A DNA stretch of 64,000 bases, from NCBI RefSeq assembly GCF_013315695.1, contig NZ_CP054353.1, one strand, 5' to 3'. How positions within the stretch are numbered: the stretch's first letter is position 1; each line of letters opens with the position of its first letter. This DNA is from Escherichia coli. Lineage in GTDB: Bacteria; Pseudomonadota; Gammaproteobacteria; Enterobacterales; Enterobacteriaceae. A program made the translations under genes and the position numbers. The notes beneath the pieces are model-generated. The model did no database searches and had not been told where the DNA came from. It saw only the letters and a list, made by a program, of their open reading frames with translations. Of the stretch, positions 17,868 through 61,536 are shown in pieces.

Positions 17868-17955
17868 GAGTTTGTCTTACTTATTTGTCTTGGTAAATTA
17901 TTGTTGTTACTACCAGGCACTGTTCTGTTAAATAACTGAAGTCAGCGCAAAAAAA

Positions 17956-18606
17956 TCAATGAGACATCATCTCCTCGACCACTTCTTCGCTACTCAACTG
18001 ATAGGGATAATACGTTGGCCAGTTTTCCATTTCATTCAATAAAGATTGCTGGGAATCATTACCCATAAAAATGTGAAAATGAGATGATTTTCGTGGTGCA
18101 ATTATATGATCGCTAAATTGTATATATTTAGGGGCTTTGCTTTCAGGATCTTTACATTCGAATAAGTAACGAACGCCTTTCTTGCCTGATTTATAGGTGA
18201 GTATTTTGTATCCATCGTAATCATATTTACAGGATGTTGTTTCATTATTTCTATGGAATTCGACAATGCCGTCCTCAATGCCAATCATTTCGATATCTGT
18301 CGCATAACCTTTGCGATAATAATCTTTAATTTCAGCAAATGGTTTGGTTTTATCTGCATCCGCTTTCTTCTGAAAGACGGGATCAAGTTTGCCACTTTGC
18401 AGTAAAGGGTAAACGGATTGCCAGACTCCATCCCAGTCACTGAGCGTTCGGTTTTGTACATTGGTATCATCAAAAACACCATTAGCAGCTTTTTGTTCGA
18501 CCTCTGTTAAGGGTTTGCCGTGTGAGTGATGACCATGCGAAAAGGCAGGAGCGCTAACAATAAAGACACCTAAAGCAACAGCCAGTTTATGAAGACGAAT
18601 CGCCAA
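17956..18606 (-). CDS. zinT: Metal-binding periplasmic protein ZinT (YodA)
   Basis: 216 aa; His-rich N-terminus HGHHSHG after signal peptide; matches E. coli ZinT. Confidence 0.9.
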
Positions 18607-18863
18607 AACAATTTCCTCCAGAGTTAATGTACATGATGTGTAATGTTATATTGTAACATATGAAAAAATGCAACAACTCATTAGGAAATGAGAGCATGGT
18701 ATTCTCAGGTGTATTTAACTATCTTATTGAAATAAAATAAATTATTCTGGTGATGAAAGGTTGATGACAAACGAAACATAACTTGATGCGATCTGTGTGG
18801 GCCGGATAGGGCGCTCGCGCCGCATCCGGCCGGGATAACGCGAAGTTTGTCGGCAATATGAAG

Positions 18864-19499
18864 TTATAGAGATAATTTGTTGTGGGCCTGCTTGCGTAAC
18901 CGGTTGAAAAGGGAAAGCAACTTCTTATACCGTAAGGCTAAAAGCAGTACAGCCAGCCCAGCGTAGATGAGTGGCTGCGGTGAAATAATCTTCACTGACC
19001 ACAGATAATGTATTGGGGCCAGGATCGCGACAAGATAGACGAAGTTATGCAACTGTTGCCAGTGTTTGCCGAGTTTTCGCTGCATCGACTGGGTTGAAGT
19101 GAACGCTAAAGCAAGCAAAATAACCCAGCTGATAATTCCTAACGTTAAATAAGGCCGGGTAATTAACTCCTTACCTAATAACGCCAGATTATTCACGCCC
19201 AACTCCAGCAATGCGTAACTGGTTAAATGCAGTGTCGCCCAGGCAAAGCACCATAAGCCTAACAGGCGGCGAGTGCGTATCAATAACGGCTGTTTTGCGT
19301 AGCGTGCCAGAGGTGTGATTAACAAGGCCGCAAGCAAAAATTTCAGTGCAGTGCGACCGGTAAAATGCTGAATATCTTTCACCGGATCGGCACCTAGTCC
19401 ACCGTGATTGATCGCCCAGACCAGCCAGAGAAACGGCAACAATCCGGCAAGATGCAGGCAAACTTTCAGCCATATCACCTGCTTTGCTGTCAGACGCAT
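18864..19499 (-). CDS. msrQ: Methionine sulfoxide reductase heme-binding subunit MsrQ (YedZ)
   Basis: 211 aa polytopic membrane protein matching E. coli MsrQ. Confidence 0.9.
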
Positions 19500-31834: not shown

Positions 31835-32626
31835 GTGCAGCACGAGACAAAAATGGAAAACCAGAGCTGGTTGAAAAAACTCGCACGCCGCCTGGGGCCT
31901 GGTCATATCGTTAATCTCTGCTTTATCGTGGTATTGCTTTTTTCCACCTTGCTCACCTGGCGTGAAGTGGTGGTGCTGGAAGATGCCTATATCTCCAGCC
32001 AGCGTAATCATCTGGAAAACGTAGCCAACGCGCTCGATAAGCATTTGCAGTATAACGTCGACAAACTGATCTTTTTGCGTAATGGCATGCGCGAAGCTCT
32101 CGTGGCGCCACTGGATTTCACCTCTCTGCGTAATGCCGTAACCGAGTTCGAACAGCATCGCGACGAGCACACCTGGCAAATCGAACTCAACCGACGGCGC
32201 ACCCTGCCAGTCAATGGCGTATCGGATGCATTAGTCAGCGAGGGGAATCTCCTGTCTCGCGAAAATGAAAGCCTCGACAATGAAATTACCGCTGCACTGG
32301 AAGTTGGTTACTTGCTGCGACTGGCGCACAACTCCTCGTCGATGGTTGAACAGGCGGTGTATGTCTCGCGTGCTGGATTTTACGTTTCGACGCTGCCGAC
32401 CTTGTTTACGCGCAATGTACCAACGCGTTATTACGGCTATGTCACCCAACCCTGGTTTATCGGCCATTCACAACGAGAAAATCGTCACCGCGCGGTACGC
32501 TGGTTCACTTCGCAACCGGAACACGCCAGCAATACTGAACCGCAGGTTACCGTCAGTGTTCCGGTAGACAGTAATAACTACTGGTTGATCAGACATGAGA
32601 TAAATGAAGGGGGATCCGTGAGATAA
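31835..32626 (+). pseudogene. dgcQ: Diguanylate cyclase DgcQ (YedQ), 5' fragment only (periplasmic sensor domain); truncated by prophage insertion
   Basis: About 264 codons matching the DgcQ N-terminal region, then a premature stop in phage-derived sequence; no TM or GGDEF domain follows. Confidence 0.8.
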
Positions 32627-32628
32627 AT
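32596..32628 (+). repeat. Two direct copies of TGAGATAAAT, 23 bp apart, at the prophage left terminus (candidate transposase-binding end repeats)
   Basis: Copies at 32596-32605 and 32619-32628, immediately after the point where the dgcQ frame diverges. Confidence 0.4.
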
Positions 32629-32781
32629 AACGAATTGGAGTGGGTTAACATGGGTTCTGGTGAACAGAACTGAAATTCTTTTCCGCTATACGATAGATAA
32701 GTCGGGCATTGAAATCATCCTTCCTGGCAACTTAGAATCGAGTTTGCTGAAACATGACCCGTAACAAAAAGGATGATTCCA

Positions 32782-32946: not shown

Positions 32947-33579
32947 TCATTCATCGTTCGTTGCACGAACGCGCCTGATCTCCACTCTGGCAATCTGATC
33001 TGCTGGAATATAGGTTGCCAGAGCTCCCCAGTACTTATCAACCACGCCTTTATACTCTTCCCATTCGTTACTTCCTGAAGGGCTGCTGTGCGTGACGTAA
33101 AGAACCATATCGCCTTTATTTCCCAGGGTAAACGGACCGTTAGGCCACTCTTCAAAGTTCCCTGGCAGCCGTGACATCATACCGGAACCATCGCGAAGAA
33201 TCACTCTGACCTCGGTGACGCTGAAGCCTGTTTGATCAAACATTGCCTGCCATGCTGAGCTGGTATTGTCAGACCATGAAATATCATTATTCCACAGTAA
33301 TCTGTACATCCATTTGCGACCGTACCTGCGCCACCACGCACCGCATGTAACGGCACACAGAAGTGCTGGGGGGGTTGCCAGCCAGGCATTCAGACCTGCC
33401 CACATAACAGCCTGGTAAGCCATCATTGCTGTCAGGCCAAAAATCAGCGAAGAAAAAGTCACCTCAATGGGTTTGTGGTGATCCTTCAGCCCCACATTCG
33501 CAATAAAATACCCAATATAGCCACTGGTCAGGGTCACCAGTGTTGCCCATGGCAGATTTAATAACGAAACGTCAAACAT
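32947..33579 (-). CDS. Hypothetical membrane protein (3 N-terminal TM segments plus about 110-aa soluble C-terminal domain), terminal gene of early operon
   Basis: Start set at ATG 33579 preceded by GGGAGA; ORF track gives 33657. Confidence 0.6.
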   Translation of the reverse strand: MFDVSLLNLPWATLVTLTSGYIGYFIANVGLKDHHKPIEVTFSSLIFGLTAMMAYQAVMWAGLNAWLATPPALLCAVTCGAWWRRYGRKWMYRLLWNNDISWSDNTSSAWQAMFDQTGFSVTEVRVILRDGSGMMSRLPGNFEEWPNGPFTLGNKGDMVLYVTHSSPSGSNEWEEYKGVVDKYWGALATYIPADQIARVEIRRVRATNDE

Positions 33580-33693
33580 ATTTTCTCCCGGCATCCTGAA
33601 TATTACATAGAGAGCATAAAAAAAGCACGGTAAAGGGTCTACCGTGCTCTTATACAATAAGGAGATTTTTGAAAGGACTTTAACAAGCAGGAA

Positions 33694-34092
33694 TTATCTG
33701 GATTTGTTAACGTCTTTCGTCTCCTCTGGCAGATCTTCATCAAACAACCTGCCCTGCATCCGATCCAGTTCTTCTTTTCTGACCCGCTTAACCACGCTGT
33801 AGACCCACTGAAGCGAAACACCAAAATTGCGGGCCAGTTCGTGGTGGTTGCGTCCGTTAAACTCCCTGAAGATTTCCCGGTCGCGCTGACTGACCTTCCA
33901 TACCATGCCCATCGGGAAATAAACGTTTTGCCCGCCCCAGACCTGCATCATTCGGTTCGCGACGGCCTGACCAATCTGGTCGGCAATTGCGGGCTCAATA
34001 TCAATAATCTCGCGAACGGTCTCAGAGGTATGCTGTGCCAGTTCCACCAGGAGTTCCGGCCCTTTACTTCGAAACTGATTCAGGTCGCTCAT
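33694..34092 (-). CDS. mor: Mor/C-family transcriptional activator (middle/late gene activator)
   Basis: 132 aa; C-terminal HTH ...ELARNFGVSLQWVYSVVKR... typical of the Mu Mor/C family. Confidence 0.7.
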   Translation of the reverse strand: MSDLNQFRSKGPELLVELAQHTSETVREIIDIEPAIADQIGQAVANRMMQVWGGQNVYFPMGMVWKVSQRDREIFREFNGRNHHELARNFGVSLQWVYSVVKRVRKEELDRMQGRLFDEDLPEETKDVNKSR

Positions 34093-44173: not shown

Positions 44174-44650
44174 TTAAGGATTATCCGGGGCGTTTTCCTG
44201 TTTGCCGTACTTCGGAGACGAACAACATTCTGTTGGCTGACCGGTGAGTTTACGTAACTCCTTCATGAGCAGCTCCTGATCGTAAACTGTCATCAGTGCC
44301 GCAATGGTGGCATGCAGTGCATCGGGCAGTATCCAGGGTTGCCGGCCCGTGGGGCATATAACATCCAGCAGCTCATTCGTCCGACAGATACGCTCCTCGC
44401 CGTATGACAACAGGCCCTGTCCCGTGTATTCCTCTAGCCTGATCACTGTGCCACCCCGTGGCTTCTGCCAGGTCGTCAGATCTTCGCCATTCATACGGCG
44501 CTCATTCTCCACGTCAGCAGCATCGACAATGACGCTGTTTCCGAGTTCCTGTTTCACCATCTCTTCTATCCGCGCCAGTACGTAACTTTTACCGCTGCCC
44601 ACAGGACCGGACACAGTGACAGTGATGACCGGATTCAGTGTGTGCGTCAT
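44174..44650 (-). CDS. Small P-loop NTPase (158 aa), function unknown
   Basis: Walker A GPVGSGKS at residues 25-32, Walker-B-like VIVDAAD; convergent with the membrane protein genes. Confidence 0.55.
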   Translation of the reverse strand: MTHTLNPVITVTVSGPVGSGKSYVLARIEEMVKQELGNSVIVDAADVENERRMNGEDLTTWQKPRGGTVIRLEEYTGQGLLSYGEERICRTNELLDVICPTGRQPWILPDALHATIAALMTVYDQELLMKELRKLTGQPTECCSSPKYGKQENAPDNP

Positions 44651-44780
44651 ATCGTATTCTCCTCTGTGAATAATTCATCGTTTATCCTGCACATCCCGTA
44701 TCCCCGGCTCTCTTAACGCGCTTTAAAATCCTTCGCGCCCTGTATTTGTGATGCTGTCTCCACCAAACGAGGAGACACAC

Positions 44781-45131
44781 ATGAAAAACCTGAAAAAATT
44801 CATTCCCCCTGTTAAAAAACCTCGCCTCAGCGGCTGGCTGCTGACCTCAGTGCTGTTGCTGGGCACCATCGCTCTGGTCTCACCACAGCAGCTGCCTGTT
44901 GTGATCTACAAGCTGGCACTCATCACGCTGGCAGCAGTGCTGGGTTACTGGCTTGACCGTTCGCTCTTCCCCAAAGCCCGTCCCGGTCAGTACCTGAAAC
45001 ATGACGACAGGCTGATGGCTGAAGGGCGTTTCCCGGTACAGACCGGCCTTCACCTGGTGTTTTCTGCTGCGTTAATCCGCCGTGCACTGATTGTTGCAGC
45101 GGTCTGCCTGGCTGTTGCGATGGGGCTTTAA
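44781..45131 (+). CDS. Putative holin (3 TM segments)
   Basis: 116 aa from ATG 44781 (GAGGAG upstream); first gene of lysis cassette upstream of endolysin. Confidence 0.5.
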   Translation: MKNLKKFIPPVKKPRLSGWLLTSVLLLGTIALVSPQQLPVVIYKLALITLAAVLGYWLDRSLFPKARPGQYLKHDDRLMAEGRFPVQTGLHLVFSAALIRRALIVAAVCLAVAMGL

Positions 45132-51504: not shown

Positions 51505-51963
51505 ATGGCTTCCGATAACCTGGTCAGTATCACCATTAACGATAAATCCCTGCGCCGGAGCCTCCGTGCGCTGGATCTTGCTGCCACAGACCTGGAGCCC
51601 GCGATGCGCAAAATCGCCGGAACCCTGCTGGCGGAAACACAGTTTAACTTTCTTGATGAGGGGCGTCCGGGGTGGATCCCCTCGCTGGCAGCGGAAGAAC
51701 GTGACGGGCAGACACTGCAGGATACCGGGCGTCTGATGGGGTCAGTATCAACCGACCATGACGACCGGCAGGCTGTTGTGGGGACCAACGTTGTTTACGG
51801 TGCCATTCACCAGTTCGGGGGTAAAACGGGGCGTAATGAGTCTGTTGAACTTCCGGCCCGCCCGTTCCTGCCGGTGACGGGGGATGGAGAACTACAGCCT
51901 GAAGTGGTAATCCCCATCCTCGATACCATTGTCCGCCATCTTGAATCAGCGGCCCGTCGCTGA
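51505..51963 (+). CDS. Virion morphogenesis protein (Mu G family)
   Basis: 152 aa; position and similarity. Confidence 0.7.
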   Translation: MASDNLVSITINDKSLRRSLRALDLAATDLEPAMRKIAGTLLAETQFNFLDEGRPGWIPSLAAEERDGQTLQDTGRLMGSVSTDHDDRQAVVGTNVVYGAIHQFGGKTGRNESVELPARPFLPVTGDGELQPEVVIPILDTIVRHLESAARR

Positions 51964-52177
51964 GTTTTCTCTCTTCAGGCGGGTGATTTATCATTGCCAG
52001 CGAATGAGGGGCTGTATTACCTTTATAAAGGCTTTACAGCCTCTGTTTTATAACCGCCTCCGGTTCACCGCATTGCTTTCCCTGTCCTTCTCCCCTGATG
52101 TTTTCTAAAGCAGATTAAAATCGCCGGGCCTGCATTTCTCACAAACTGTCTCCGACAACATAACGCGGGACAGCAAA
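51964..52177 (+). promoter_or_regulatory. Intergenic region upstream of the protease/scaffold gene; candidate Mor/C-dependent late promoter (analogue of Mu P_I) with a hairpin GGCTGTA ... TACAGCC
   Basis: Only gap over 200 bp inside the otherwise tightly packed head operon; Mu has a late promoter at the same position. Confidence 0.3.
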
Positions 52178-53293
52178 ATGTCAGCCATTCACATTTTTAA
52201 AGCCGGTACTCATACCGATATGCACGGCAAAAAACTGCCGTTCACGCCAGACGATCTTGCCGCCTGCGTGAAAGCCTATGACCCGTCCGTCCATGAAGCA
52301 CCACTCGTGATTGGTCATCCCAGAACGGAAGACCCGGCGTGGGGCTGGGTGAAAGCCCTGTCGCTCAGCGGCGTCGATCTGATGGCAGAGCCTGCCCAGC
52401 TGGACCCGCAGTTTGCTGAGATGGTCACCGACGGACGATTCAAAAAAGTGTCCGCCTCTTTCTACCTCCCGGATTCACCGTCCAATCCGAAGCCCGGCGT
52501 GCTCTACCTTCGCCATGTGGGCTTTCTCGGGGCACAGCCACCTTCCGTCAAGGGGCTGAAACAGGTGTCCTTCAGTGAGCAGGAAGAAGGTGTGGTGGAG
52601 TTCGCCGACTGGCAGGCCATCACGAATGCCTCCCTGTGGGGAAAGCTGCGCGATTTTCTGATCGCCCGCTTCAGTCTGGACGAGGCAGAAAAAGTCCTGC
52701 CGGAATGGCAGCTCAACAGTCTGCGCGAAGAGGCGTACCGCGACACACTGTCGCAGGATGCAGCAGGTGCACAATTCAGTGAGACAGGCCCGGGGCCGTC
52801 TTCCGCAAGTAACGAGGAATCATCGATGACAAAAGAAGAGATTGAAGCCCTTCAGGAGGAGAACCGCCGCTTGAAGCAGCAGGCTGCTGATCGCGATGCG
52901 CGTGATGCACAGGTCAGACAGGAGCAACTGCATAAGGACAATGTGGCCTTTGCAGAAAAACTGGTCGCAGAGGGCCGTCTGGCTCCCCGCGCCTCCTCCG
53001 TGGTGGTTGCCCTGCTGGATGCCGTCGCCGGTGGCGACAAGCCGGTGGAGTTTGCTGAGGGGGAAAGCCGCACACCGCTGGCCACCGCCTTTCGTTCATT
53101 GCTCTCCGACGGGGAGCCGGTGATGAATTTCGCCGAACAGGCCACAAAAGAGCGTGTCGGCGACACGGTGAAGGTGGATGTGGCAGAGTTTGCGGAAGCC
53201 GATCCTGAGCGTCTGGCCCTGCATCAGAAAGCAGTGGCCCTGTCCAAAAAAGAAGGCATCAGCTATGAGGCTGCTGTCGCACGCTGCCTGTAA
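52178..53293 (+). CDS. Head maturation protease / scaffold protein (Mu I family)
   Basis: 371 aa; N-terminal protease-like domain, C-terminal coiled-coil scaffold region. Confidence 0.8.
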   Translation: MSAIHIFKAGTHTDMHGKKLPFTPDDLAACVKAYDPSVHEAPLVIGHPRTEDPAWGWVKALSLSGVDLMAEPAQLDPQFAEMVTDGRFKKVSASFYLPDSPSNPKPGVLYLRHVGFLGAQPPSVKGLKQVSFSEQEEGVVEFADWQAITNASLWGKLRDFLIARFSLDEAEKVLPEWQLNSLREEAYRDTLSQDAAGAQFSETGPGPSSASNEESSMTKEEIEALQEENRRLKQQAADRDARDAQVRQEQLHKDNVAFAEKLVAEGRLAPRASSVVVALLDAVAGGDKPVEFAEGESRTPLATAFRSLLSDGEPVMNFAEQATKERVGDTVKVDVAEFAEADPERLALHQKAVALSKKEGISYEAAVARCL

Positions 53294-57994: not shown

Positions 57995-58091
57995 CATCAC
58001 AGGGGCTCCGGCCCCTTCTTCTTAATCTCCTTTAATATCCGTCACGCGCTTCTCCCGACATACTGCCCTGAACTTACACAGGAGCACAATC

Positions 58092-58427
58092 ATGTCACAG
58101 ACCCCATCCGATACTTTTAAATTGTCTTATCCCTTCACCACTGCTGCAGGCACCAGAATTGAGCTGGTTGAACTGAAACGCCTGACGGTAAAAGACCTGA
58201 AGCAGGTGCGCAAAATCAGCAAAAACCCGGCAGACTGGGACGAACCGCTGATTGCCCGCAGTACTGGTCTTCTCCCGGAAGATCTCGACAATATGGATCT
58301 GGCTGATTACCTGCAGTTACAGAAACGATTTCAGCTCATCACGGGGATGGGTGAGAGCAACCAGGGCGCTGACGCAGGCGCAGGGGCTGCTGGCGAGATG
58401 GTTCCGGTTTCAGCCGGGGGAGATTGA
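58092..58427 (+). CDS. Tail assembly chaperone (Mu gp41 / lambda G analogue)
   Basis: 111 aa directly upstream of tape measure gene. Confidence 0.7.
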   Translation: MSQTPSDTFKLSYPFTTAAGTRIELVELKRLTVKDLKQVRKISKNPADWDEPLIARSTGLLPEDLDNMDLADYLQLQKRFQLITGMGESNQGADAGAGAAGEMVPVSAGGD

Positions 58428-58584: not shown

Positions 58585-61536
58585 ATGTCGGGACAGTTTT
58601 CAGTCGGCGTTGTTATCGGCGGGATGATTGGCAGCACATTCCGTTCTGCAATGAGCGGTACCCGCCGTGCGCTTGATTCCCTGAGCGATACCTCACGCCG
58701 CCTGCAGGAACGTCAGAACGCTTTAACCCGTGCAACAGAACGTTATGGTCAACTGGGTTCTTCCCGGATGCAGCATCTCAACAGCGAGCTGCTGCGGGTA
58801 AGCCGCACCATGGAGCAAATTGAGCGCCAGCAGCGCCGTCTGTCAGCGGCATCCGCTACCAGTGATGCGCTGAAAGCTAACCGCATGGCGCTGTATGGTC
58901 AGGGGATTGAAGCGTATGGCATGGCACAGACTGTTTATCATACGGTTTCCCCTGCCGTTCAGCAGTCCATGTCTTTTCAGGACAAAATGATTGATATGTC
59001 GATCACCGCAAAATATGACAATAAAACGCGGGATGCACTTGCCGGACAGATAAAAGGCTGGGCGCTTAAATACAATCAGTATCAGGATGAGCTGCAGGAG
59101 GCGGTGGGTTCACTCATCAGCGACAATATTGATAATGTGTCAGATATCGGTTTTCTGATGCCGGATATTGCCCGCGCGGCAACGGCAACACGCACGTCTG
59201 CTCAGGACTGGGCAAAAGTGGCCGCAGTCTGGCAAAACTCCCTGAAAGGTGCGGCCAGAGATTTTGGTGCCGTTCAGAATATTATGGCTTATGCCGGTGA
59301 CCAGGGGTCATTTGAAATCCCGGATCAGGTCAAGTGGATGCAGTCCCTGGCCCCAATGATGGCGGGTATTGCCAGTGGAAAAGAGGCTGTTGCTGAAATC
59401 GGGGCCAGTCTCCAGATAGCAAAAATCGGTGCAGGTTCCACCGACGAAGCAGCTAATAATTTTAAAAACTTTCTTACCAAAATTTTTGCCCGCGATACTC
59501 AGAAACAGTTTGCTGATCTGGGTATTGATTTGCAGGGATCTATTGCGAGTTATAAAGCTGCGGGGATCTCTCCGATTGAAGGGATGTTGAGTGTTATAGA
59601 ACGTTACCTCAATGCCAAAAGCCCCGAAGCGCTGGCCGGCTTCAAATCAGCCATGAAAATAAAGAATGATACGGCAAGAGATGAGGCACTTCAGGCTCTG
59701 GCGAAAAACTTTGGTCTGGGCGATATGTTCGCGGATATGCAGGTCATGGCATTTATCCGCCCGATGCTGGCCAACATGGACAGATATCGAGAGATCCGTG
59801 CCGGTGCTCTCAGGGCTGCGGATAACGATTTGCTTGCCAGTGCTTATGATCAGCGGCTGAAATCTCCCCTTGAAGCCACTAAAACACTTATGGTCAGCAG
59901 TCGCGATCTGGCAATTACGCTGGGCGATCAATTAGCTCCATCTTTTATTTCTTTGACTCAGGAACTGCTTCCACTCATTCAGGGGGCAAAACACTGGGTA
60001 GCGACTCACCCGCAATTTGTCAGTGGGGCTTTTAAGCTCATCAGTGCGCTCCTTGCGATTAAGATAGCGACTGTTGGTCTCAAACTGGGGCTGAATCTCC
60101 TTATTTCCCCCTTTGTAAGTGTCTGGAAAAATGCTGTTTTACTTCGGGCCAACTGGCTTCGTCTGTCGCTCGCACTGGGGCAAGGCGGTAAGCTCCGCTG
60201 GCTGGTGACCGGATTTAGCGCCGTCGCCAGAGGAGCCAGAACACTGAGTGGCGTGCTCTCCGGGGGGCTGGTTCGCGGAATTATGCTCGCCGGACGTGCT
60301 GTTCTCTGGATTGGACGTGCGCTGATGATGAATCCCATCGGTCTCGTTATCACCGCTGTCGCGGCAGCAGCTTACCTTATCTACCGCAACTGGGGGGCAG
60401 TCAGTGGCTGGTTTAAACAGCGCTGGGCAGACATTCAGGAAGCCTTTAACGGCGGCATTGTGGGAATTGGTAAGTTACTGATTAACTGGTCGCCGGCAGG
60501 CCTGCTCTATAAAGCCTTTGCGGCTGCGCTGAAATATTTCGGCGTTGCTCTGCCGGCAAAGTTCACCGACTTCGGTGGCCATCTTATCGACGGTCTGATT
60601 AACGGTATCAAAAACAAATGGGGGTCGCTCAAATCCAGTGTAACCGGAATGGGTGACAGCATCAGTAGCTGGTTTAAACAGTGCTGGGCTGACATTCAGG
60701 AAGCCTTTAACGGCGGTATCGCGGGAACTGGTAAGCTGCTGATTAACTGGTCGCCGGCAGGTCTGCTCTATAAAGCCTTTGCAGCTGCGCTGAAATATCT
60801 TGGTGTTGATCTGCCGGCAAAGTTCACCGACTTCGGTGGCCATCTTGTCGACGGTCTGATTAACGGTATCAAAAACAAATGGGAGTCGCTCAAATCCAGT
60901 GTAACCGGAATGGGTGACAGCATCAGTGGCTGGTTCAGCGAAAAGCTGGGCATTCATTCGCCGAGCCGCGTGTTTATGGGCTTTGGTGACAATATCGCGC
61001 AGGGGGCCGCCATTGGCCTGCAGCGGACCACTCCGCTTGCAGCTCTGGCCGGGCAGCGAATGGCCAGTGAACTGCTCCCCAAAATGCCCGTGAGCATTCA
61101 GGGGCCAGAAATACGGGATAACACTTCAGGTGTTCGCTTCAGTATGCCGTTGCCCGATATCAATGGGTTTATGTCGTCTGCTAAAAATGCGATCGGAGCC
61201 GTAATCAATAGTTTGTCTTCCATGCCCGCTATCCCGCTCTCCACCCGGGCATCGATTTTACCAGGGCAACGTCTGGCAAATGAGATGACACCGGATGTTC
61301 CCCGTATCCCCTCGCCTGAAATCATGGCTGCCGGATATTCAGGCCGTGGTGCAGCTGCAACCGGCGGTGGAACGTCTGGTGGTATCCAGGTCAGCTTTAA
61401 TCCTCAGTTTTTCCTCAATGGCAGGGAAACCACAGCGCCTGCAGGACTGACTGGTGCCCTGAATATGAGTCTGCATGAGCTGGAAAAAATGCTGGAGCGT
61501 CTGCTGGCTCAGAAACAACGTAAGGAGTACCGCTGA
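58585..61536 (+). CDS. Tail tape measure protein
   Basis: 983 aa; long helical protein with hydrophobic central segments between chaperone and baseplate genes. Confidence 0.9.
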   Translation: MSGQFSVGVVIGGMIGSTFRSAMSGTRRALDSLSDTSRRLQERQNALTRATERYGQLGSSRMQHLNSELLRVSRTMEQIERQQRRLSAASATSDALKANRMALYGQGIEAYGMAQTVYHTVSPAVQQSMSFQDKMIDMSITAKYDNKTRDALAGQIKGWALKYNQYQDELQEAVGSLISDNIDNVSDIGFLMPDIARAATATRTSAQDWAKVAAVWQNSLKGAARDFGAVQNIMAYAGDQGSFEIPDQVKWMQSLAPMMAGIASGKEAVAEIGASLQIAKIGAGSTDEAANNFKNFLTKIFARDTQKQFADLGIDLQGSIASYKAAGISPIEGMLSVIERYLNAKSPEALAGFKSAMKIKNDTARDEALQALAKNFGLGDMFADMQVMAFIRPMLANMDRYREIRAGALRAADNDLLASAYDQRLKSPLEATKTLMVSSRDLAITLGDQLAPSFISLTQELLPLIQGAKHWVATHPQFVSGAFKLISALLAIKIATVGLKLGLNLLISPFVSVWKNAVLLRANWLRLSLALGQGGKLRWLVTGFSAVARGARTLSGVLSGGLVRGIMLAGRAVLWIGRALMMNPIGLVITAVAAAAYLIYRNWGAVSGWFKQRWADIQEAFNGGIVGIGKLLINWSPAGLLYKAFAAALKYFGVALPAKFTDFGGHLIDGLINGIKNKWGSLKSSVTGMGDSISSWFKQCWADIQEAFNGGIAGTGKLLINWSPAGLLYKAFAAALKYLGVDLPAKFTDFGGHLVDGLINGIKNKWESLKSSVTGMGDSISGWFSEKLGIHSPSRVFMGFGDNIAQGAAIGLQRTTPLAALAGQRMASELLPKMPVSIQGPEIRDNTSGVRFSMPLPDINGFMSSAKNAIGAVINSLSSMPAIPLSTRASILPGQRLANEMTPDVPRIPSPEIMAAGYSGRGAAATGGGTSGGIQVSFNPQFFLNGRETTAPAGLTGALNMSLHELEKMLERLLAQKQRKEYR
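60408..60929 (+). repeat. Tandem direct duplication (2 x 261 bp, about 95 percent identical) inside the tape measure gene
   Basis: Unit WFKQ(R/C)WADIQEAFNGGI(V/A)G(I/T)GKLLINWSPAGLLYKAFAAALKY... repeated in frame; second copy begins near 60669. Confidence 0.85.

What the first reader, a model, noticed from the sequence alone, without database searches (positions are those of the whole stretch)
51964..52177. Internal intergenic gap in the head operon as a candidate activator-dependent late promoter
Head genes are packed with overlapping stops and starts except for this 214-bp gap upstream of the protease/scaffold gene, which contains a hairpin (GGCTGTA ... TACAGCC). Mu has a C-dependent late promoter at the equivalent position, so this may be where the Mor-like activator acts.
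Basis: inference. Interest (0 to 1): 0.25.

Follow-up and report, generated by a model that had tools for sequence, protein, structure and literature searches.

The report
Mor-type late promoter plus central palindrome

Summary
The gap (51964-52177) and the hairpin are real. The prophage is BcepMu-like, 99.8% identical to Escherichia phage PhiKM and present in 636 of 5426 complete E. coli genomes. A 17-nt box YTAA-N6-TTAAWAT lies upstream of the holin gene (44713), the protease/scaffold gene (52105) and the tail chaperone gene (58022). Each box is followed by exactly 20 nt, a -10-like hexamer nAnnnT, then G. No -35 is present. A matrix built only from relatives' gaps ranks these sites 1-4 of 128,000 window positions. 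The same architecture occurs at four late operon starts in Klebsiella phage KP12 and Burkholderia phage BcepMu. It also matches Mu's Mor-dependent middle promoter. The prophage encodes one Mor-family protein. The predicted transcription start is 52154-52156. The hairpin (52007-52044) lies 60 bp upstream of the box and is not the promoter. Its core CTTTATAAAG is single-copy per phage genome, sits at 51% of genome length and is retained from Enterobacteria to Burkholderia. It is most likely the terminator or 3' hairpin of the upstream operon. An equivalent of Mu's central gyrase site is not excluded. Everything is computational. Verdict: an expected feature, a new member of a known kind.

The parts
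51505..51963 (+). gpG-like virion morphogenesis gene, the last gene of the upstream late operon
   Evidence: ORF; Pfam PF05069, E = 9.7e-23; annotated as Mup31/G in PhiKM
51964..52177 (.). the 214-bp G-I intergenic gap
   Evidence: conserved in relatives
51976..51993 (.). conserved block CAGGCGGGTGATTTATCA. It matches the Mu gyrase-site cleavage core GCGG[C/G]TGATTT at 10 of 11 positions in inverted orientation. Function unknown.
   Evidence: conserved in enterobacterial relatives; the match to Mu is not significant on its own
52007..52044 (+).
   Evidence: each lineage has its own hairpin built round the same core; no common register
52021..52030 (.). 10-bp palindrome CTTTATAAAG, one copy per phage genome, at about 51% of prophage length
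   Evidence: genome ends
52073..52104 (+). pyrimidine-rich tract and T-run upstream of the box, variable in sequence but CT-rich in all relatives; possibly a contact for the RNA polymerase alpha subunit
   Evidence: inference
52105..52121 (+). Mor box CTAAAGCAGATTAAAAT, an imperfect dyad CTAA-N6-TTAA centred at 52111.5, about -43
52122..52141 (+). 20-nt spacer of fixed length and variable sequence, with no -35 hexamer
52142..52147 (+). -10 hexamer CAAACT, followed by G at 52148
   Evidence: (high information at A2 and T6)
52154..52156 (+). predicted transcription start, giving a leader of about 23 nt; GCGGGA at 52165-52170 is a Shine-Dalgarno-like sequence
   Evidence: inferred from the -10 position and from the Mu Pm dyad placed at -51 to -36
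52178..53293 (+). protease/scaffold gene (Mu I/Z equivalent), the first gene of the operon served by this promoter
44713..44755 (+). sister late promoter upstream of the holin gene (ATG at 44781): box TTAACGCGCTTTAAAAT, 20 nt, then GATGCT
58022..58064 (+). sister late promoter upstream of the tail chaperone gene (ATG at 58092): box TTAATCTCCTTTAATAT, 20 nt, then CATACT. A terminator-like hairpin at 58001-58016 lies just upstream.
33694..34092 (-). the Mor-family activator gene of the prophage, the only one seen in the annotations of relatives
   Evidence: Pfam PF08765, E = 3.6e-43; 55% identity to BcepMu gp01, 31% to Mu Mor, 35% to Mu C; the annotations of the related FORC_031 prophage and of BcepMu each list one

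Best explanation
The gap has two independent modules. The 3' module (52105-52147) is a late promoter that depends on the prophage's single Mor-family activator. The activator binds the imperfect dyad CTAA-N6-TTAA, which sits where a -35 hexamer would be and is centred near -43. It recruits sigma-70 RNA polymerase to the weak -10 hexamer CAAACT, and transcription starts near 52154-52156. This re-initiates or boosts transcription just before the genes needed in largest amount: protease/scaffold, major head protein, sheath and tube. The same box drives the holin and tail operons in the window and a baseplate operon just beyond it, so one Mor protein controls four late promoters. Mu uses a two-step cascade instead, from Mor to C to the late promoters. 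The 5' module (52007-52044) is a hairpin built round the conserved core CTTTATAAAG. It most likely acts in the sense transcript as the terminator or protective 3' hairpin of the upstream holin-to-G operon. Shown here: the sequence architecture, its recurrence, its conservation, and the presence of the activator gene. Inferred: binding by Mor, the transcription start, and the role of the hairpin.
For: Promoter. The pattern YTAA-N6-TTAAWAT has exactly 3 matches in 64 kb on both strands, all at the three predicted sites, against 0.04 expected. The pattern was derived from those sites. The independent test is a matrix built from 29 non-window G-I gaps, which ranks the G-I, holin (both orientations) and tail sites 1-4 of 128,000 positions. 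Their scores are 37.9, 23.4, 21.0 and 20.4, against a maximum of 15.7 in 20 shuffles. In KP12, four sites score 44, 28, 25.7 and 21.3 against 13.9. In BcepMu, four sites score 36.5, 29.2, 17.0 and 14.5 against 12.9. All 12 sites, and Mu Pm, show a 17-nt box, exactly 20 nt, nAnnnT and then G. Across lineages with 45-75% protein identity the spacer sequence varies but its length does not, and information peaks at the box and at A2 and T6 of the hexamer. No sigma-70 promoter with a -35 is found on the + strand of the gap. The BcepMu box GTAAAGCCGATTAA matches Mu Pm GTAAAGCCGGTTAA at 13 of 14 positions. In Mu the Mor dyad is placed at -51 to -36, centred at -43.5. MuC and Mor promoters have a -10 but no -35. 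The Mor-family gene is present. Hairpin. It folds at -19.6 kcal/mol with z = -3.9. Hairpins enclose the core in most lineages, and several are followed by T-runs. One stem pair follows the path G-C (BcepMu), G.T (phiE255), A-T (L148), which stays paired only in + strand RNA. The tail promoter also has a terminator directly upstream.
Against: No transcript ends have been mapped and no binding has been tested. The matrix finds Mu Pm only at rank 5 in the Mu genome with a non-significant score, so the likeness to Pm rests on direct comparison. For the hairpin, RNAalifold finds no structure common to 19 lineages. One enterobacterial group (L040, L044 and relatives) keeps only a weak inner hairpin and has no T-run. 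The U-tract in the window is interrupted. A terminator does not need the exact 9-10 nt core that is retained from Enterobacteria to Burkholderia.
Confidence: 0.8

Rival explanations
1. The 5' part of the gap, comprising the block at 51976-51993 and the palindrome at 52007-52044, is the counterpart of Mu's central strong gyrase site. In Mu, gyrase bound at the genome centre supercoils the prophage into a loop that brings the two ends together for replicative transposition. A variant of this idea is that the flexible AT-centred palindrome pins the tip of a supercoiled loop without a special gyrase site. The promoter would then share the gap with this site, as PI does in Mu.
For: In Mu the annotated gyrase cut site (17879/17880) lies in the same G-I gap, 20 bp after the G stop. 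A central position is required for its function. Here the palindrome centre is at 0.511 of an inferred 38.07-kb prophage, and at 0.510 in BcepMu; the Mu site is at 0.487. The core is single-copy in each phage genome and confined to G-I gaps of this family. GCGGGTGATTT, 17-18 bp after the G stop, matches the Mu cleavage core at 10 of 11 positions in inverted orientation. AT/GC periodicity of 10-11 bp over 51989-52052 is at the 99.6th percentile of the window. The same measure puts the Mu right arm at the 99.75th percentile.
Against: The core match is not significant in a gap-to-gap alignment, is inverted relative to Mu, and is absent from BcepMu. The periodicity figure is a maximum over about 230 starting positions, so roughly p = 0.04, and it is weaker and placed elsewhere in BcepMu. 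Gyrase reads DNA mainly by shape, which does not require an exact 10-mer. Centrality follows from gene order shared with Mu, so it is not independent evidence. A review states that only the E. coli Sakai prophage site could replace the Mu site among those tested. Those tests, by my recollection, included the related S. Typhi CT18 prophage.
Confidence: 0.15
2. The palindrome is an auxiliary DNA binding site for Mor or for another phage DNA-binding protein. It would raise or tune the activity of this one promoter, which drives the most abundant structural proteins.
For: Read on the minus strand the element is GTAAAGCC-TT-TATAAAG, against the Mor box GTAAAGCC-GA-TTAAAAG. It ranks 7th of 128,000 positions with the box-only matrix. 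It is built of alternating TAAAG/CTTTA pentamers, and TAAAG is the left half of the Mor box. The Pasteurella phage has an array of TTTAAAGC repeats at the corresponding place. The primary sequence is conserved while the hairpin register is not.
Against: The score of 11.8 is within the chance range. The distance from palindrome to box ranges from 71.5 to 127.5 bp with no helical phasing. The G-C to G.T to A-T path in the stem favours an RNA structure. No -10-like hexamer follows the element at +20 on the minus strand (read from the sequence).
Confidence: 0.15
3. The gap holds an ordinary activator-independent sigma-70 promoter that uses TAAAAT (52116-52121) as its -10 hexamer.
For: TAAAAT and TAATAT match TATAAT at 5 of 6 positions and occur at all three window sites.
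Against: Nearly all relatives have TAAAAG, which lacks the essential T at -7. No -35 lies upstream. A second, better placed hexamer with conserved A2 and T6 lies exactly 20 nt downstream in every lineage.
Confidence: 0.04
4. The gap encodes a small protein, the 41-codon ORF 51983-52108 that is annotated in KP12.
For: The ORF is open in the window and in KP12, and it is annotated in KP12.
Against: The C-terminal halves are unrelated because of compensating 1-nt indels. The frame carries none of that sequence in the L044 group. The ORF has a GTG start and no ribosome-binding site.
Confidence: 0.02

Closest known systems
Phage Mu middle promoter Pm (Mor-dependent)
   Same: The box is nearly the same: GTAAAGCCGGTTAA in Mu against GTAAAGCCGATTAA in BcepMu and CTAAAGCAGATTAA here. 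The 20-nt distance to a -10 hexamer followed by G is also the same, there is no -35, the dyad is centred near -43, and the activator belongs to the same protein family.
   Different: In Mu this promoter drives the middle operon, including gene C. Here the same design drives the late operons directly, and no second (C-like) activator is seen in the annotations of the related prophages. The activator is only 31% identical to Mu Mor.
Phage Mu late promoter PI (C-dependent)
   Same: It has the same genomic position, the gap between G and I, and the same role of starting the protease/scaffold and major head operon. It is one of four late promoters, with a -10 but no -35.
   Different: The Mu C box is TTAT-N5-6-ATAA. 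Here the half-sites are TTAA-type, and the box is closer to the Mor box.
Phage Mu strong gyrase site
   Same: It lies in the same intergenic gap, near the genome centre, in single copy.
   Different: There is no significant sequence similarity and no cleavage data, and the conserved element here is a short exact palindrome rather than an extended arm of phased bends.
Intrinsic (Rho-independent) terminators placed directly before Mor/C-type promoters, such as the hairpin plus T-run overlapping Mu Pm and the one before the tail promoter here
   Same: A stem-loop followed by a T-rich stretch lies at the end of an operon, just upstream of the next promoter.
   Different: The stem has an internal loop and an interrupted U-tract, and its apex is conserved in sequence across genera, which terminators do not need.

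Membership tests
Mor/C-dependent promoters of Mu-like phages | A Mor/C-family activator is encoded by the same phage | tested here: met
   window 33694-34092(-) matches Pfam PF08765 with E = 3.6e-43
Mor/C-dependent promoters of Mu-like phages | A recognisable -10 hexamer but no -35 hexamer | tested here: met
   CAAACT has A2 and T6 conserved in relatives; the consensus scan finds no + strand promoter with a -35
Mor/C-dependent promoters of Mu-like phages | An imperfect dyad with half-sites one helical turn apart, overlapping the -35 region and centred near -43.5 | tested here: inconclusive
   The geometry relative to the -10 is identical to Mu Pm (box, 20 nt, hexamer). The position relative to +1 rests on a predicted start.
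Mor/C-dependent promoters of Mu-like phages | The same box recurs at the starts of the other operons of the regulon | tested here: met
   holin and tail sites in the window; four sites each in KP12 and BcepMu
Mor/C-dependent promoters of Mu-like phages | Transcription requires the activator; the activator footprints the box | not testable with these tools
   needs 5'-end mapping, reporter assays and footprinting
Mu-type central strong gyrase site | Located between G and I, near the genome centre | tested here: met
   0.511 of the inferred prophage length; 0.510 in BcepMu
Mu-type central strong gyrase site | Sequence related to the Mu site | tested here: not met
   The best alignment to the cleavage core scores at the shuffle mean.
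Mu-type central strong gyrase site | An arm with extended phased bending signals | tested here: inconclusive
   The periodicity is at the 99.6th percentile as the maximum over the gap. The Mu positive control reaches 99.75. BcepMu is weaker. The published matrix was not available.
Mu-type central strong gyrase site | Efficient gyrase binding and cleavage; needed for replicative transposition | not testable with these tools
   needs Topo-seq or in vitro cleavage, and deletion phenotypes
Intrinsic terminator | A stable G+C-containing stem-loop | tested here: met
   -19.6 kcal/mol, z = -3.9
Intrinsic terminator | A U-tract immediately after the stem | tested here: inconclusive
   UCUGUUUUAU in the window. 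T-runs are present in L045, L064, L065, L066 and BcepMu but weak or absent in the KP12 type and the L044 type.
Intrinsic terminator | The structure is kept across relatives | tested here: inconclusive
   No common register, but each lineage has its own hairpin and there are compensatory changes.

The most novel reading that the evidence does not exclude
The single-copy palindrome CTTTATAAAG, conserved at the exact centre of BcepMu-like transposable phages from Enterobacteria to Burkholderia and Pseudomonas, is a cis-acting organiser of prophage topology. It would be a functional counterpart of the Mu strong gyrase site, acting either by recruiting gyrase or by pinning the tip of a supercoiled loop through a flexible or cruciform-prone centre. 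It would therefore be needed for end synapsis in replicative transposition and would not be merely a terminator.
Probability: 0.15. Interest if true: 0.6.

Novelty: new member of a known kind. Interest (0 to 1): 0.3.

Why it matters
The result gives a concrete, testable map of late transcription for a transposable prophage carried by about 12% of complete E. coli genomes, including ST131 strains. The map has one Mor-family activator, one box and four promoters of fixed geometry, in place of Mu's two-step cascade. The box plus spacer rule can be used to annotate late operons in BcepMu-like phages of several host genera. It also suggests corrected start codons, for example for BcepMu gene I. Separately, the single-copy central palindrome is a candidate for testing whether transposable phages other than Mu carry a central topological site.

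Tried and rejected
1. TAAAAT as the -10 hexamer was rejected. Relatives carry TAAAAG, and a better hexamer sits at a fixed +20.
2. The 41-codon ORF in the gap was rejected as not conserved.
3. Rfam gave nothing: no match reached a family's gathering score, and the best E-value was 2.
4. RNAalifold on 19 lineages found no common structure.
5. Scoring against the published 133-bp gyrase consensus was abandoned. My crude score ranked the true Mu site near the bottom of its own genome, so the positive control failed. The real matrix (Table DS10) was cut from the stored supplement.
6. Local alignment of the Mu gap against the window gap was uninformative for the gyrase core. That match is at chance level. 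The best match is a CT-rich tract with p about 0.05.
7. Helical phasing between the palindrome and the box was rejected. The distances range from 71.5 to 127.5 bp.
8. KS10 has neither element and gave no information.
9. The exact 15-mer was searched in IMG/VR. Only 15 of the first 80 loci are G-I gaps of this family; the rest are unrelated AT-rich or coding DNA. The element is therefore not a general phage or host signal.
10. Oram & Pato 2004 and Oram et al. 2006, on gyrase sites of Mu-like prophages, are not held in the library.
11. The literature searches I ran found no paper describing Mor boxes in BcepMu-like phages. The search was limited.

Full report
**Context.** The window carries a BcepMu-like (Bcepmuvirus) transposable prophage. 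The region around the finding is 99.8% identical to Escherichia phage PhiKM and about 87% identical to Klebsiella phage KP12. The gap sequence occurs in 636 of 5426 complete E. coli genomes. Comparison with a second lysogen puts the left prophage end at 32586. By extrapolation the right end is near 70654, beyond the window, giving a length of about 38.07 kb. The early genes run leftward and end with one Mor-family gene at 33694-34092 (Pfam PF08765, E = 3.6e-43). The late genes run rightward from the holin gene at 44781.

**Observation.** The gpG-like ORF ends at 51963 and the protease/scaffold ORF starts at 52178, leaving a gap of 214 bp. The neighbouring head genes overlap or nearly abut. It has 19-nt arms at 52007-52044 with the inner palindrome CCTTTATAAAGG. 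It is unique in the window. As RNA it folds at -19.6 kcal/mol with z = -3.9. A gap of 200-280 bp between G and I is a constant of this phage group and of Mu.

**Anatomy from comparison.** Alignment with relatives of about 86% identity shows conserved blocks separated by fast-evolving DNA. The blocks are 51964-52042, 52096-52120 and 52137-52177. I retrieved 80 loci through the protease protein, which gave about 29 distinct gap sequences reaching down to 45% protein identity. Two things survive at that depth. One is a core TTTATAAAG in the 5' half. The other is a motif tTCT-TAAAGC-nnn-TTAAAAG in the 3' half.

**The promoter.**
These are the only three matches in the window, against 0.04 expected, but the pattern was derived from those sites.
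- The independent test was a weight matrix built only from non-window G-I gaps. It ranks the G-I site, the holin site (both orientations) and the tail site as hits 1-4 of 128,000 positions. The scores are 37.9, 23.4, 21.0 and 20.4, against a maximum of 15.7 in 20 shuffles.
- In KP12 and BcepMu the same matrix picks out four intergenic sites each. They lie upstream of the holin, I, tail chaperone and baseplate W genes.
- In all 12 sites the 17-nt box is followed by exactly 20 nt, then a hexamer nAnnnT, then G. The hexamers are GATGCT, CAAACT, CATACT, AATACT, CAGACT, CAAGAT, GATGAT, GACAAT and CAACAT.
- Across lineages the spacer sequence is free but its length is fixed. Information content peaks at the box and at hexamer positions 2 and 6, which are the two critical -10 positions.
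- TAAAAT is therefore the right half of the activator site and not the -10. Relatives carry TAAAAG there.
- No -35 is present.

**Link to Mor.** Mu's middle promoter reads GTAAAGCCGGTTAATCC, then 20 nt, then TATCCT and G. The first 14 nt match the BcepMu box at 13 positions. Published work places the Mor dyad at -51 to -36, centred at -43.5, and describes Mor and C promoters as having a -10 but no -35. The C box is TTAT-N5-6-ATAA, which has the same geometry as TTAA-N6-TTAA here. Carried over to the window, the dyad centre at 52111.5 lies near -43 and the start falls at 52154-52156. My matrix, however, finds Mu Pm only at rank 5 in the Mu genome, which is not significant. The window protein is 55% identical to BcepMu gp01, 31% to Mu Mor and 35% to Mu C. 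Only one family member is annotated in the related FORC_031 prophage and in BcepMu. This points to a one-step cascade.

**The hairpin module.**
- It lies 60 bp upstream of the box. The distance between the two elements varies from 71.5 to 127.5 bp among lineages without helical phasing. The hairpin is therefore an independent module and not part of the promoter.
- Most lineages can form a hairpin round the core, and several have T-runs after it.
- There is no shared register, and one enterobacterial group keeps only a weak inner stem.
- In the Burkholderia type, one stem pair runs G-C (BcepMu), G.T (phiE255), A-T (L148). This path stays paired only in the sense RNA.
- The tail promoter likewise has a clear terminator directly upstream.
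- I therefore favour a terminator or 3'-protective hairpin for the holin-to-G transcript. This does not explain why the 10-bp palindrome CTTTATAAAG is kept exactly, once per genome, in hosts as distant as E. coli, Pseudomonas and Burkholderia.

**Other readings of the 5' module.**
- *Gyrase site.* In Mu the G-I gap holds the strong gyrase site as well as PI, and a central position is essential for its function. Here the palindrome is at 0.511 of the prophage, and at 0.510 in BcepMu. A block 17-18 bp after the G stop matches the Mu cleavage core at 10 of 11 positions, but in inverted orientation and at chance level. Periodicity of 10-11 bp in AT/GC content is high (99.6th percentile) by a measure that also flags the Mu right arm (99.75th), but the value is a maximum over the gap. 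The published gyrase matrix was unavailable, and my substitute failed its positive control. This reading stays open at about 15%.
- *Auxiliary Mor site.* On the minus strand the element reads as a degenerate Mor box (rank 7, not significant). The Pasteurella phage has an array of TTTAAAGC repeats at the same place. This reading also stays at about 15%.
- *Small ORF.* The 41-codon ORF annotated in KP12 is not conserved.
- *Known RNA family.* Rfam has no match above threshold.

**Comparison and verdict.** The promoter works like Mu Pm and sits where Mu PI sits. It passes the membership features that can be tested in sequence; activator dependence itself cannot be tested here. The literature searches I could run found no description of this box for BcepMu-like phages. 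Even so, it is an expected feature of a known kind. Interest is modest. The open question worth an experiment is the central palindrome.

Noticed in passing
window 44684-44729, minus strand; gene 44174-44650 (-): The holin Mor box is nearly palindromic. Read on the minus strand it scores 23.4 (rank 2 in the window) and is followed after 20 nt by CAGGAT. This lies about 30 nt upstream of a 158-aa AAA-like gene that is absent from KP12. It may be a divergent Mor-dependent promoter for an accessory gene.
   Followed up: partly
outside the window (about 64.3 kb by extrapolation); L008 32474-32516; L002 30034; L005 30774: A fourth promoter of the same design lies in the short gap before the baseplate W gene. 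Its -10 hexamer AATACT is followed by GCCCCC and then ATG, so the mRNA would be leaderless or nearly so.
   Followed up: partly
L005 (BcepMu) 18812-18865: The predicted -10 hexamer GATGAT overlaps the annotated start of BcepMu gene 32 (18850). The real start is probably the ATG at 18862 (MNAKPLHIF), which matches the N-terminus of relatives. The mRNA would be nearly leaderless.
   Followed up: partly
window about 33600-33695, minus strand: Just after the mor stop codon there is a Mor-box-like sequence, TTGTTAAAGTCCTTTCAAAAATC. It is followed by a strong terminator hairpin (AGCACGGTA...TACCGTGCT plus T7), ahead of the last ORF at the left end (32947-33657). The layout recalls Mu Pm overlapping the early terminator, but the score of 11.9 is within the chance range.
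   Followed up: partly
window 32586-32640; L008 38700-38755: The prophage ends begin with TG and end with CA, and they carry repeated (G/C)GATAAAT(G/A) motifs that are presumed transposase binding sites. The 7-mer GATAAAT also occurs, reversed, in the conserved central block (51985-51991).
   Followed up: no
window 51946-51963: A second terminator-like hairpin, TCAGCGG CCC GTCGCTGA followed by GTTTTCTCTC, overlaps the last codons of gene G and is conserved in relatives. Two such hits in this region is not more than chance (1.3 expected).
   Followed up: no
window 52146-52175, 44755-44777, 58065-58083: Downstream of each -10 hexamer a C-rich arm (for example TGTCTCC) pairs with the G-rich Shine-Dalgarno region (GGAGACA). 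The left arm straddles the predicted start, so whether this forms a 5' stem-loop in the mRNA depends on the exact start site.
   Followed up: no
window 52073-52093 against L007 (Mu) 17955-17975: The best local match between the two G-I gaps is a pyrimidine tract: TTGCTTTCCCTGTCCTTCTCC against TTCCTTTCACTTTCTTTCTCC, 17 of 21 positions, p about 0.05. CT-rich tracts precede the box in all relatives.
   Followed up: partly
window 33694-34092 (-), protein C-terminus: The Mor-family protein ends with ...MQGRLFDEDLPE. QGRLF resembles the C-terminal sliding-clamp-binding motif (QPDLF) recently reported for the Mor/MuC family.
   Followed up: no
window 60383-60935: The tape measure gene contains an internal tandem duplication of about 290 bp at about 92% identity. 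Each copy carries CTCTATAAAGCCTTTGC, a near-match to the central palindrome core that is probably coincidental.
   Followed up: no
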